The notes below the pieces were generated by a model. It did no database searches and was not told where the DNA came from. It saw only the letters and a list, made by a program, of their open reading frames with translations. Below, one piece after another: positions 56,602 to 61,298 of a stretch of DNA of 64,000 bases. Source of the stretch: Paramecium tetraurelia (Eukaryota); assembly GCA_000165425.1 (NCBI GenBank), contig CT868097.1:68867-132866 (forward strand). Reading direction: 5' to 3'. Made by a program: the position numbers and the translations under genes. Each line of letters opens with the position of its first letter. Within the stretch, counting starts at the first letter, position 1.

Positions 56602-58737
56602 TCATTATTTTAACATACACATAATGGGATGTTCACCTGGTTCCAAAATCTCATATTTTTTGTCGCATAACAAATAAGTTCCAATTCTAATTTGGTATTT
56701 ACAAGTTTCCTCCTCTGTAACTGAGATGAACCTCATCAAATCCCCTGGATAACATTCAAGCTTGATTCGACTCTATCTCGTAGAATTAATAGGATTGCAA
56801 AAACTACCGAATCTATAATGTTCTTCAAAAACTCCATTTATTTCCCCTGTAAAATTTAATGGATGATAGTACTACGTTGATAAGTTTGTAGTAAATAGTC
56901 CAAAATCGATCAAGGGAAGTGGCATTATATCATAAATCTTCAAACCACTAGATTTCTTATCAAATTCAAAAATGATTGGTGAATAAGTTTTTCTTCTTAT
57001 TCTCTCTATTTTAAATTCAATGAGTGTGTTTGATAATTTTATTAAATTACCTTTCCCAACATACAACACGTCGGTTTCAGTATCCACTATAATCCAATAT
57101 AATTGATTTAGAAGACTACTATTTTGAAATCTAGATTCCATTTGAACATACCTTCCATACTTGTTTTTAACATAAATATTTGGTTGAGGCTATGTCAATA
57201 TGATAATCTAAGTATCTAAATACATATGGCTAATTAGATTGATGAATAAAGCGCAAGCTGTCTCATTATTTAATTAATAAATAGAAAATGTAACTCCCAT
57301 ATATTTTTGATATTGTTGTTTAATTTGATATCCTTAAGTTGGATTGTTGAATATATGGACTTGCACGAGATCATATTCTAATTTATTCAGTGAAATTAAG
57401 TATTCATCATCAAATTCGAAGGTGTCGAGTTGCGGTGGAATAACATTTGATAGTTTATTAAATTAGCCACTCCTTCTAATAAATGCTCTTCCTTCATAAC
57501 GCAAACCCTTGGTCAATTTCTTATCCAAAATGGCAATTCCATTATGTTCTGAGCTTACTCTGAAGGATTCAACATAAGTGAATGCTGAAGCAGTATTATC
57601 AAATAAAGTTATAAAATCATTAATATTGATCCTATTATCTTAATGATAAAATAGAGTATTCTCTGAAATCAGTACAGATCCTTTTAATAGTTCATAAATA
57701 GCATTGGTATCCATTACCATCAATTTTTAGATTAATGAGGGAGACTTTTAGTCTTTTGAATTAGGCAAGTAACCTAAGATTTAGATGGCACAGTAATCAA
57801 TGACTTTCTTTACTTACACTAGAAATGGCTTGTCTGTTAAGATTACACCAAGACTCTATTGTGGATGAAAGATAGTCTATGCTTAGAGATCCAACCCATA
57901 AATAATATCCTTGTATTGATAGTATTGATTCTATTTAATTACAGATTTCTATTTTTTTAATTGAATAATCTCGTAGTAATCTGAAATGATTACTACATCT
58001 GAACATGAGGATAGTAGTAGCAATTCATTGTAGATTACTTGAATCACACGAAATGTATACATTTTGTCTGATGTTGAAATATTGAGTTGATATTCGAATT
58101 TGTCTGATATCTAATAGTTTCTCAATTTGGCCAAGCATCCCTCGATAATTATCAATCGATCAATCTATTATCGTATTTAATGATAATTAGTATCTAAATA
58201 ATATGAAGAATTAGGAGGCTCAAAACCTGCATAGGAATAATTCTTGGAAATAAATTAATTCGAATATCCCAAACTAAAGTCCTCTTTTAACTTAGAATAT
58301 AAATATAAGTCTTACAATCTTTTGCATGTTTTAAATCGTATCTAAATCGTCATATTGTCTCACGTGTTTTCTAAAGCAATATTCATAGAGAAATTCTTTG
58401 GTTGTATGATGCACACATAAATCTATTAATGGAAATAGAATGCTATTGGCTTCATCTTCTATCAGAATTCTGGCAATTGATAATTCATCCACATTCAGAG
58501 GTTTAGATAGTTGGGGTATTGGAATTTGACATAGGACTGTTCTGCCGTCTCTGATACTACTAATGCAATACCTTGGAGGGTTATTTCTTTACCAATAGAA
58601 TCGAAAACATGTTATACAGCATAAAGTTCAGGGTAAGGGGTGCGATGGTCTTGATGGTCCCTCTCAATTGTATGTATTGTGTAGGTATTTTCTGCATTAA
58701 AAGCTTAAGCAATAGTAAATATTAGAAAAATTAACAT
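56602..58737 (-). CDS. OS-9/Yos9/XTP3-B-like ER lectin with an MRH (PRKCSH) domain split by a large insertion
   Basis: Signal peptide MLIFLIFTIAQA; LFPLIDLC...FLYEYCFRKHVRQY..FSLG; C-terminal HYRFGSFCNPINSTRQSRIKLEC...ISVTEEETCKYQIRIGTYLLC. Confidence 0.75.
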
Positions 58738-58741
58738 ATTA

Positions 58742-61298
58742 ATGAGTGTTGGATAGGTTCATCCTAGTTGCTCATCTCCGATTGATACCAAGGATTATAA
58801 AACAGGATTAGAGTATGATATCCATTTTACTTGAATAGTTCACTCAAACTATTTAATACAATAAGATAGAGTAGACATACATCAAAAGAAACCACTCTCA
58901 TTATCTCACCTAAACAGTATAATTTGATATTATCGAAGTGGAATAAGCAATCGCGCATTCTTAACTCCAAAACGTAGTTAGTTTACTAGTTAAGATTAAA
59001 TTGTTGAGGAAGATGATTATTTTAGAGATCGAAGAGCAAAAAGAAAATTTGATACTGCATCCCGAAAATTAATGATCCTATTGAACTTCTTTAGACATAT
59101 AAATCAAACAAAAGACACAGATAAAACATCATAGATTAAATAAATTCACAAGAAACGAAAAAAGCTGCCGTTCTATCCAAATTAGTTGCAAATTTGGAAA
59201 TAATTTATGTCAGTGCAAACATTAATTACTTTGATGTTGTATCCAATCTACATCAGTCTCTCAGACTATAAGAGTTTAGTATTCATATTAATCATTTTAG
59301 GATGTTTTGACCATTCTTATTTTGATTTTGGATAGTTTATATTTGGTTGACATCATTCTAAAATAAGTTACATGTCAAATCGATAAAAATCATAATTTAA
59401 TCGATACCTTCTAGGCCATATTCCTATTTAATCTGCAAAGATGGCTCATATTCGACATCCTCAGTATCATCCCATATAAGTTATTTGTTAATGATTTTAC
59501 AGATTAATTATGCTTAAATCTCTTAAAATTACTGAGATTTATTAAGTATTTCAGCTACAACGAAAGGTAAATCTACTAAGAGGCCTAAACATCCTAAGAC
59601 TAATCATAATATTTCGAGAGATTATTTTAACTCGATGGGAAATTGTTGAGTATTTTAAAGATATTCAAAAATATGCTCATCTTAATCAGTCTTTTTGGAT
59701 GTTTGTTTCATTCTGTTTTATTATACGATGGAATTTCATAATAAGAAGACAGTTCGAAAATCTATATTCAAGGATTGTATTGGGCTATTCAAACTGTTAC
59801 AGTCATTGGCTACGGGGATGTACCTATGACAACCTCAACATAATATAATTTAACAATCATTTGGATATTCTTGGGAGTTGGGTTCTATTCCATGACTATC
59901 GGCAACTTAGCTGCAATTTTGGAATAGCAATCTGCAAACGAAGGCTTTGATGAAGATTTAGAGGCCCTGGAGACTCTGATGTCTCAAATCCTCATACCAG
60001 AGGAATTAAGTGCTTAACTATTCTCCTATTATTATTATAATATTGAAAACAATCCATTTTGGAATTACAAGAAGTATTTCATTTTTATAATAAAGATGAT
60101 AGAATCATTGAAACCTTGCCATCTCAACTTAAAGTATTTGCCATTGCATTTTGTCAAAAACAACTAATCGAAAATGTCAACATCTTCTCTTTTGATATCA
60201 ACTTTGCTGCTGCCATCCTACCTTATTTTTCTATTTACTGTTTCAAACAGTATGAAACTGTATATTTCAATGGATCTCCTAGTCTTGAAGTCTATTTCTT
60301 AGTGGCTGGAGAGATCCGTCTATGTGATAAGGATGGCAACACACTTCTTAATATCAAAGAAGGTTATATTTTTGGGGAAATTGAAATACTAGAGGATACC
60401 TATAGAAAATAAGCAGCAATCGCCAGTAAGGACTCTGTTGTTATTATGTGTCCTGTATTTTAATTCTTACAATTAGTTTAAGATGATGAAAAATTGCTCT
60501 TTGAAATTGAGTAATTAGGATTAAGAAGAAGACTTTTATTGCAGGAAAGCATTTCCAAAATTAAAAGTATTTATATATCCTTATGTCTCAATAGAAAGTG
60601 CAAAATAAATAAAAAGGATAAGTGCATTAGATGGGTAATTAATGAATTAGTATGTTACAAAAAAGTAACTATTAGAGAGACAATTTAAAAGAAGTATTAT
60701 TAAGGATTCCTATCAATAAATACATAAAAAATTGATTAGATTCATTTTTGGACTGAAATAAGAGAAAAAATGGAAATATCAGGCTATATTTAAAATGGCT
60801 GTCAGGAAAATCATAGATCATAGGAAATAAGCCTTATTATTATCGAGAAAACACAGTATGGTATTGGGTAAGTAAATGCTTTAAAACTTTGCTCAAGTAA
60901 GAGAAGATGAAAAAAATCTTCAGAAGAAAATTTTGAATAATAAAAAGAGTGGAAAATATTAAAAAAGAGTGAAAATTAAAGATATCTTAAATCATCATAG
61001 ATAAAGTCGAATAGCACCATTGTTAATCACGCCTTCCCCATATTATGAGGAAATTATCAGTGAAGTTAAGGAAGAAAAATAATTATTTAAACAAAAACAA
61101 AATTTTATTGTCGAGTTATCTAACAAACTTATTAAAATAAATTTAACTGGATAATTAAAAATATTTAATACCTTATATGAAGAACTAATGAAAAGCATTG
61201 ATTACTTAGATGAGATTTAGTATCAAACTAATTAATCTGTAGAAGAAATGGAACTAATATACTATTAAATATCTTCATTGATTATATCTATTTTTTGA
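58742..61298 (+). CDS. Cation channel with cyclic-nucleotide-binding domain (HCN/EAG-like)
   Basis: Pore YWAIQTVTVIGYGDVP and CNBD GYIFGEIEILEDTYR. The ATG at 58742 joins the channel frame through two canonical introns. Confidence 0.88.

What the first reader, a model, noticed from the sequence alone, without database searches (positions are those of the whole stretch)
58735..58744. Divergent start codons only 4 bp apart (CAT-atta-ATG)
Seen: the OS-9-like gene (minus) starts with a clean signal peptide at 58737. The channel gene (plus) starts at 58742 and reaches its conserved frame through two canonical introns (58814-58839 region and ~58917-58938). Inference: the two mRNAs either have almost no 5' UTR or overlap head-to-head, and the promoter elements must lie inside coding sequence. 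Other divergent pairs here are 33-57 bp apart.
Basis: partly seen in the sequence, partly recalled or inferred. Interest (0 to 1): 0.72.

Follow-up and report, generated by a model that had tools for sequence, protein, structure and literature searches.

The report
Paramecium genes starting four bases apart
Two real, active Paramecium genes point away from each other with only four bases between their start codons, so the AT-rich start signal that normally sits between genes appears to be written into the first codons of one of them; it is an extreme but not unique case of this organism's tight gene packing.

Summary
Confirmed. An OS-9-like gene (minus strand, ATG 58737) and a cyclic-nucleotide-binding channel gene (plus strand, ATG 58742) start 4 bp apart in Paramecium tetraurelia. 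My gene model equals the two public protein annotations, and both N-termini are conserved in five species. The junction is kept in an older paralogous pair (both genes intact) and in the recent duplicate, where the OS-9 copy has decayed except for its first ~45 bp (41/45 identical against 69% further in). Stranded RNA shows both genes expressed, switching strand at 58710-58739. Likely mechanism: the ~30-bp AT-rich block that precedes ordinary Paramecium ATGs is supplied by the OS-9 signal-peptide codons; the channel mRNA starts inside them (an unstranded contig begins at 58730) and the OS-9 mRNA starts a few bases before its ATG, so the 5' ends cross. Neither start site is mapped. Rare, not unique: among 99 other predicted divergent pairs, one has 4 bp and one 10 bp, both kept in their duplicates. 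The scan noted 20-50 bp cases in other compact eukaryotes. New member of a known kind; a useful minimal-promoter test case.

The parts
56602..58737 (-). OS-9-like gene (PRKCSH/MRH domains), 695 aa; public annotation GSPATT00008004001
   Evidence: Self-trained gene model identical to P0001; PF07915 28.5 bits against cut-off 27; relatives in four other species
58735..58737 (-). Start codon of the OS-9-like gene
   Evidence: M1-L2-I3 invariant in 6 of 6 aligned proteins; no in-frame ATG upstream before a TGA, next Met at about codon 130
58699..58737 (-). Short hydrophobic, signal-peptide-like N-terminus (13 codons) made of AT-rich codons
   Evidence: 7-residue Kyte-Doolittle mean up to 3.4; codons 2-11 hold 4 G/C in 30 nt, lowest 2.6% of 235 genes; no signal-peptide predictor was run
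58712..58741 (.). 30-bp AT-rich block (3 G/C) holding AATTAA and ATTAAT; inferred core promoter / initiation region, lying almost wholly inside the first nine OS-9 codons
   Evidence: Matches the -30..-1 profile of 235 ordinary genes (G/C 11-15%; TTAATT 67, AATTAA 68 of 235 against about 46 in shuffles); retained in the decayed OS-9 copy on C65. Function inferred
58716..58731 (+). Inferred zone of channel transcription start (-26 to -11)
   Evidence: Genome-wide interquartile range from bioRxiv 10.64898/2026.09.19.752804; X3 contig of the window copy begins at 58730, that of the duplicate at the 58721-equivalent. Not mapped
58738..58741 (.). 4-bp spacer ATTA
   Evidence: Same length in C36 (ATTA) and C65 (ATAA)
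58742..58744 (+). Start codon of the channel gene
   Evidence: MSxxQVHP in 10 of 11 aligned relatives; the eleventh (P0012) is an annotation that starts later although its DNA holds the motif
58742..61298 (+). Ion-transport + cyclic-nucleotide-binding channel gene, 809 aa; public annotation GSPATT00008005001
   Evidence: Model identical to P0024; PF00520, PF07885 and PF00027 above cut-off
58760..58762 (-). Out-of-frame upstream ATG for the OS-9-like gene (the His codon of QVHP read backwards), 25 nt upstream; suggests an OS-9 5' UTR under about 25 nt
   Evidence: also present in C36. The constraint is inference
58813..58838 (+). Channel intron 1 (26 nt; in-frame TGA if retained)
   Evidence: Same position and phase in four paralogs with lengths 26/25/26/27; depth dip in X20 and X21; unspliced contigs also exist in X3
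58917..58938 (+). Channel intron 2 (22 nt)
   Evidence: Lengths 22/22/23/25 in four paralogs; depth 0-0.33 in bin 58920-58949
58549..58571 (-). OS-9-like intron 1 (23 nt, rare GAG acceptor)
   Evidence: depth dip over 58530-58589
58291..58315 (-). OS-9-like intron 2 (25 nt)
   Evidence: depth 0-0.27 in bin 58290-58319
59279..59300 (+). Channel intron 3 (further introns 60074-60102, 60567-60594)
   Evidence: model identical to the public protein

Best explanation
Both ATGs are true starts of two conserved, expressed genes (shown). Ordinary Paramecium genes have a ~30-bp AT-rich block right before the ATG, in which transcription starts 11-26 nt upstream (block shown here; start range from the literature). 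With no intergenic room, that block is encoded by the first ~10 codons of the OS-9-like gene, whose Leu/Ile/Phe signal-peptide codons are almost pure A/T (shown). Pol II starts the channel mRNA inside this block, so its 5' UTR is antisense to the first OS-9 codons (partly shown). The OS-9-like mRNA must start at or beyond 58737, probably only a few nt upstream, over the spacer and the channel's ATG (inferred). The 5' ends therefore cross by about 10-30 nt. The overlap is most likely tolerated compaction rather than a regulatory device: the macronucleus holds hundreds of copies of each locus (recalled), so different copies can fire in different directions (inferred). The geometry is locked because neither side can move without changing a start codon, a signal peptide or a promoter.
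For: Starts. Neighbouring protein accessions on equal-length contigs for both paralogous pairs in other aurelia species (adjacency only, spacing not seen). Expression: strand-pure reads on both genes in 3 of 3 raw runs, switch in bin 58710-58739; in X20, 9 nt of plus-strand coverage before 58740 must come from at most 2 reads, so one starts at or before the 58735-equivalent (duplicate's alleles); X3 contig with the window's alleles begins at 58730. AT block. Footprint after gene death on C65: 41/45 against 1279/1846, Fisher p = 5.5e-4; A/T sites alone 34/36 against 1024/1327, p = 0.006; 0 of 2032 other 45-nt windows reach 41. The footprint resembles that upstream of 55 ordinary duplicate genes. 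Same pattern in the independent 4-bp pair C688:257340: one partner has 3 G/C in codons 2-11, while 2 of 52 wide pairs reach 4 or fewer and 0 of 52 reach 3 or fewer.
Against: No start site is mapped. Depth is low (29-36 reads per run) and no joint or end site passed the listing thresholds. The contig at 58730 is unstranded and X3 is only guessed to be RNA. Minus-strand reads reach at most 58720, short of the ATG, so raw plus and minus reads do not overlap each other. The 30 nt upstream of the OS-9 ATG are G/C-rich (11 of 30, top 0.9%), so how that gene is initiated is unexplained. Intron 1 also appears unspliced in X3 (depth 9.4 and 12.4). Part of the C65 footprint may be the slower decay of AT-rich DNA. 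The AT-codon pattern rests on two independent pairs; the 10-bp pair does not show it clearly (7 and 6 G/C).
Confidence: 0.68

Rival explanations
1. Near-leaderless pair: both mRNAs start in or next to the 4-bp spacer with 5' UTRs of 0-4 nt and do not overlap, as in microsporidia.
For: Minus-strand upstream DNA lacks an AT block and has an upstream ATG at -25; X21's 6 nt of plus coverage before 58740 could come from several reads of 1-2 nt; UTRs under 7 nt exist in E. cuniculi (PMC2803860).
Against: X3 contigs begin 12 and 21 nt upstream of the channel ATG, and an X20 read of the duplicate starts at least 7 nt upstream; Paramecium 5' UTR median is 19 nt (PMC5485702).
Confidence: 0.12
2. The overlap is a selected regulatory switch (transcriptional interference or 5' RNA duplex) that couples or opposes an ER lectin-like protein and the channel.
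For: The exact 4-bp length survived two genome duplications; the pair stays adjacent in other species; X3 shows the channel start without OS-9 pieces, and X19 shows OS-9 without reads on channel exon 1; such duplexes act in human INO80E/HIRIP3 (PMC11890862 abstract).
Against: The channel duplicate on C65 kept its reading frame and expression after its OS-9 partner died; an older channel paralog has an ordinary AT-rich upstream region; short spacers in general keep their length between duplicates (33/32, 31/31); no excess co-regulation of start-start pairs genome-wide (PMC8997361); run differences rest on few reads.
Confidence: 0.12
3. One ATG is not the start actually used: the OS-9-like mRNA begins near 58720, or the channel uses a later Met.
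For: Minus-strand coverage in bin 58710-58739 is the same 11 nt in X20 and X21; unspliced intron 1 in X3; one public annotation of the C36 channel starts later (P0012).
Against: Both N-termini are conserved across species and across the older duplication; synonymous change is not raised in codons 2-11 (2 of 7 and 2 of 8 against about half elsewhere); intron lengths vary without breaking frame; short-read RNA-seq under-covers 5' ends (general knowledge).
Confidence: 0.05
4. The 4-bp spacer is a somatic product: in the germline an eliminated sequence (IES) sits at the TA of the spacer.
For: The spacer contains TA, the scar that IES excision leaves (recalled). Not tested.
Against: TA is very common in this genome; the expressed macronuclear locus has the 4-bp form anyway, so this would change the origin story, not the transcription problem.
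Confidence: 0.03

Closest known systems
Start-start (divergent) gene pairs of P. tetraurelia with short 5' UTRs (PMC5485702; PMC8997360; PMC8997361; bioRxiv 10.64898/2026.09.19.752804)
   Same: Same organism; 8,867 divergent pairs; 5' UTR median 19 nt; AT-rich initiation region at -26 to -11; the preprint suggests that core promoter elements may be shared or overlap a neighbour's 3' UTR.
   Different: The passages I read describe no spacer this short, no initiation inside the divergent neighbour's coding sequence and not this locus. In my sample the tight pairs cluster at 23-37 bp, and 4 bp lies below that.
Encephalitozoon cuniculi head-to-head S16/L13 pair and signals in adjacent CDSs (PMC2803860, passages)
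   Same: Compact eukaryote; one AT-rich signal proposed for two divergent genes; signals inside adjacent coding sequence reported as rare (9 cases).
   Different: There the spacer is 35 bp and holds the signal, UTRs are under 7 nt and a CCC motif is used; here the spacer is 4 bp and the AT block is coding.
Human 5'-overlapping head-to-head genes, e.g. INO80E/HIRIP3 (PMC11890862, abstract only)
   Same: Divergent coding genes whose transcripts cross at their 5' ends.
   Different: There an extended isoform overlaps and forms a regulatory duplex; here the overlap would be 10-30 nt, forced by lack of space, with no evidence of regulation.
Tetrahymena head-to-head pairs sharing a start region (885 pairs; PMC11754650, passages)
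   Same: Ciliate bidirectional initiation region.
   Different: Tetrahymena has much longer UTRs and intergenic regions, so the shared region is not coding.

Membership tests
5'-overlapping head-to-head gene pair | Two real protein-coding genes on opposite strands pointing apart | tested here: met
5'-overlapping head-to-head gene pair | Both are transcribed | tested here: met
   Strand-pure reads on both genes in 3 of 3 raw runs
5'-overlapping head-to-head gene pair | Transcripts share sequence at their 5' ends | tested here: inconclusive
   Channel side reaches 58730 (unstranded contig) and at least the 58735-equivalent (duplicate's stranded read); the OS-9 mRNA must include 58737 but reads stop by 58720
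5'-overlapping head-to-head gene pair | Regulatory duplex or interference | not testable with these tools
   Needs perturbation
Bidirectional promoter | Divergent starts close together around one AT-rich region | tested here: met
   One 30-nt window with 3 G/C at the junction; every one of the 34 tightest predicted pairs has a window with 4 or fewer
Bidirectional promoter | The same element drives both directions | not testable with these tools
   The block lies downstream of the OS-9 start, so for that gene it would be an internal element; needs a reporter
Bidirectional promoter | Co-expression of the pair | tested here: inconclusive
   Both seen in three runs of one study; too few reads
OS-9 / PRKCSH (MRH-domain) proteins | PF07915 above its cut-off | tested here: met
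   28.5 bits against 27 on one exon; also on record for 6 of 6 relatives
OS-9 / PRKCSH (MRH-domain) proteins | Second MRH domain (PF13015) near the C-terminus | tested here: inconclusive
   20.6 bits against 23; on record for 2 of 6 relatives
OS-9 / PRKCSH (MRH-domain) proteins | Cleaved signal peptide, ER location, mannose binding | not testable with these tools
   Only hydropathy was computed
Cyclic-nucleotide-binding-domain cation channels | Ion_trans pore with TxxTxGYGD-type filter followed by a cNMP-binding domain | tested here: met
   PF00520 38.7/25, PF07885 41.2/22.5, PF00027 44.2/27.5; TVTVIGYGD in the sequence (the filter motif itself is recalled)

The most novel reading that the evidence does not exclude
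Paramecium has a class of some tens to hundreds of near-zero-spacer divergent pairs in which the whole core promoter is a ~30-bp AT block encoded by one partner's first codons. That one block would start one mRNA from upstream and position the other from inside its own coding sequence, so N-terminal codon choice (here a signal peptide) is under promoter selection. This would show that Pol II initiation in this ciliate needs little more than a local AT-rich, nucleosome-poor patch and no intergenic DNA at all.
Probability: 0.4. Interest if true: 0.62.

Novelty: new member of a known kind. Interest (0 to 1): 0.4.

Why it matters
The Paramecium core promoter is undefined: the 2026 start-site survey found no well-supported motif. 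A pair with no intergenic DNA, plus a natural control in which one partner died and left a ~45-bp footprint, confines one gene's promoter to a few codons and makes the question testable by synonymous recoding. It also warns annotators that spacers this short can be real. It is not a new mechanism as far as shown: both genes were already annotated with these starts and similar pairs recur.

Tried and rejected
Chance string: rejected as the basis of the claim; the claim rests on conservation and expression. Annotation artefact, as in an earlier Giardia case of this scan: tested by independent gene prediction and by relatives, rejected. Metagenome scan for the junction pattern: 0 matches; no evidence either way. 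Run search: no RNA holder listed among indexed runs. Splice-junction reads: none passed the listing threshold. A fourth genomic copy (recent duplicate of C36) was not found. Candidate 8-bp pair C114:167496 set aside: the minus-gene ATG is absent in its duplicate. TCAT as an initiator-like motif made by the partner's ATGA: no peak near ATGs of ordinary genes (8 and 5 hits in the last two 10-nt bins against 14-23 in most upstream bins), dropped. Reduced synonymous change in codons 2-11 fits dual use but the counts are too small. Spacing in other species could not be read: no DNA of other Paramecium species was at hand; only protein records. The duplicates of the two C688 pairs were seen only as whole-stretch identity and junction matches, so their full gene models on C180 are unchecked. 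Literature searches found no description of this locus or of such spacers in Paramecium. The intergenic-distance classes of PMC8997361 Fig. 4B and S4D are pictures; two supplements of PMC5485702 were too large to read; the preprint's supplements are closed. Any of these may hold per-gene starts or the true distribution.
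Full report
Observation. The letters are as described: CAT at 58735-58737, ATTA, ATG at 58742-58744. The DNA reads with genetic code 6. The genome is 72,094,543 bases in 697 contigs, the size given for P. tetraurelia in Table 1 of PMC5485702 (passages), and the protein records name that species. The string itself is common (19 in the window, 231 in 783 kb), so everything depends on whether both triplets are starts.

Both starts are real. A gene finder that I trained on fetched DNA alone predicted 56602-58737 (minus; introns 58291-58315, 58549-58571) and 58742-61298 (plus; introns 58813-58838, 58917-58938, 59279-59300, 60074-60102, 60567-60594). Both products are identical to public proteins P0001 (GSPATT00008004001, 695 aa) and P0024 (GSPATT00008005001, 809 aa). 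The minus gene has a PRKCSH domain; the plus gene has Ion_trans and cNMP-binding domains. M-L-I is invariant in 6 of 6 OS-9-like proteins. MSxxQVHP opens 10 of 11 channel relatives; the exception is an annotation that starts later although its DNA holds the motif. These records are themselves predictions, but the conservation is real. Channel introns 1 and 2 sit at the same place in four paralogs with lengths 26/25/26/27 and 22/22/23/25, which keeps the frame only if they are removed.

History. The genome holds three copies of the junction. On C36 (about 70% identical, an older duplication by its divergence) both genes are intact and 4 bp apart. On C65 (83-88%, syntenic over the fetched 200 kb) the channel is intact and the spacer is 4 bp, but the OS-9 copy has a frameshift after codon 11, deletions and stops, and a protein search does not find it. 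A more distant channel paralog (L004) has an ordinary AT-rich upstream region. In P. octaurelia, pentaurelia, primaurelia and sonneborni the two proteins lie on contigs of equal length, and in 6 such pairs where both accessions were listed they differ by two. That shows adjacency, not spacing.

RNA. Three raw poly(A) runs of one study and one contig set were laid on 58230-59129. Depth is low: 36, 29 and 31 reads. Reads are strand-pure on each gene and switch in bin 58710-58739. Depth dips over all four introns covered, but no joint passed the listing threshold. Plus-strand coverage begins before 58740 (9 nt in X20, 6 nt in X21). At 58765 and 58780, 4 of 6 X21 reads carry the window's alleles; 3 of 3 X20 reads carry the duplicate's. 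In X3 an unstranded contig with the window's alleles runs 58730-58812, ending at the intron 1 donor, and the duplicate's begins at the 58721-equivalent. Against a clean reading: X3 is only guessed to be RNA and also holds intron 1 unspliced for both copies; minus-strand reads reach at most 58720; raw reads of the two strands do not overlap each other.

Where the promoter is. In 235 ordinary predicted genes G/C falls to 11-15% in the 30 nt before the ATG, with TTAATT/AATTAA enriched (67 and 68 of 235 against about 46 +/- 6 in shuffles). The channel has such a block (58712-58741, 3 G/C), but it consists of the first OS-9 codons, which are among the most AT-rich N-termini (4 G/C in codons 2-11, lowest 2.6%). 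The OS-9-like gene has no such block upstream (11 G/C, top 0.9%) and an out-of-frame ATG at -25. The dead C65 copy is a natural control: its first 45 nt are 41/45 identical to the live gene against 1279/1846 beyond nt 60 (p = 5.5e-4; A/T sites alone p = 0.006), and none of 2032 other windows does as well. The footprint looks like that upstream of 55 ordinary duplicate genes (0.84-0.87 at -30..-1, 0.64-0.72 beyond -70). So the channel has a normal-sized promoter that happens to be coding.

How rare. On 783 kb (C114 1-462,866; C688 100-300 kb; C36 100-220 kb) I predicted 100 divergent pairs of genes of 80 codons or more, without N; the C65 and C36 460-520 kb stretches were left out as non-independent. 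Four have 10 bp or less, including this one; the next lie at 23-37 bp. Of the other three, C688:257340 (4 bp; EF-hand-like and kinase-like by eye) and C688:236145 (10 bp; alpha-SNAP-like by eye) align across the junction with duplicates on C180 at 92% and 88% and keep both ATGs and the spacer length; C114:167496 (8 bp) failed that test. That is 1 of 99 at 4 bp and 2 of 99 at 10 bp or less; scaled to 8,867 divergent pairs (PMC8997360, passages) about 90 (95% range 2-488) and 179 (22-630). The predictor is rough: of 81 C114 starts that could be mapped to C65, 57 were called at the same place, 16 had an ATG there and 8 did not. In the second 4-bp pair one partner again has very AT-rich first codons (3 G/C), seen in 0 of 52 wide pairs; two cases are a lead, not a rule.

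Mechanism. Published 5' UTRs have a median of 19 nt (PMC5485702, passages) and starts fall mostly at -26 to -11 in an AT-rich region without a clear motif (bioRxiv 10.64898/2026.09.19.752804, parts 1-4 of 6 and passages). Applied here, the channel mRNA starts at 58716-58731 inside the first OS-9 codons, and the OS-9 mRNA, which must contain 58737, starts a few bases above it. The 5' ends cross. I read this as tolerated compaction, not a switch: the channel duplicate lives on without its partner, and start-start pairs show no extra co-regulation (PMC8997361, passages and supplement passages). Shown: starts, expression, AT block, footprint. Inferred: start sites, overlap, promoter function, tolerance through polyploidy (ploidy recalled).

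Comparison and verdict. It works like a 5'-overlapping head-to-head pair with a promoter inside coding sequence, known from E. cuniculi (PMC2803860, passages) and human (PMC11890862, abstract); Tetrahymena has shared start regions (PMC11754650, passages). Membership in the overlapping class is likely but not proven without mapped 5' ends. Seven searches found no account of this locus or of such spacers in Paramecium; figures and supplements that I could not see may hold one. Earlier notes of this scan describe 20-50 bp cases in other compact eukaryotes. Verdict: real, rare (about 1% of divergent pairs), new member of a known kind, interest 0.4.

Noticed in passing
window 58549-58571 (minus): OS-9-like intron 1 ends in GAG (about 1.5% of predicted acceptors) with a CAG 2 nt upstream; use of the CAG would give a 21-nt intron and a premature TGA.
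   Followed up: partly
G000:C65, beside the channel ATG at 114,187 (L002): Decayed OS-9-like copy, still about 69% alike over 2 kb; a clear post-duplication pseudogene whose first ~45 bp are kept.
   Followed up: yes
G000:C688:257340-257345 (L082): Second pair 4 bp apart (EF-hand-like gene and kinase-like gene); 29-bp junction identical in the duplicate on C180.
   Followed up: partly
G000:C688:236145-236156 (L080): Alpha-SNAP-like gene and a neighbour 10 bp apart, kept in the duplicate on C180.
   Followed up: partly
window 9533/9567 and 52484/52517; several pairs in L007-L104: Tight divergent spacers cluster at 23-37 bp and often hold TTAATTAA-like palindromes (17 of 235 upstream regions against 8.7 +/- 3.1 in shuffles); a candidate core element.
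   Followed up: partly
window 58813-58838: Channel intron 1 appears unspliced in X3 contigs for both duplicates (depth 9.4 and 12.4); the retained form has an in-frame TGA.
   Followed up: no
G000:C36:490694-493257 (L090): The public model of the C36 channel (P0012, 745 aa) starts about 70 codons too late; the DNA holds the conserved N-terminus.
   Followed up: yes
window 60074-60102: 29-nt intron here; in the C36 paralog the matching stretch can be read through in frame and public models of relatives disagree on whether it is removed.
   Followed up: no
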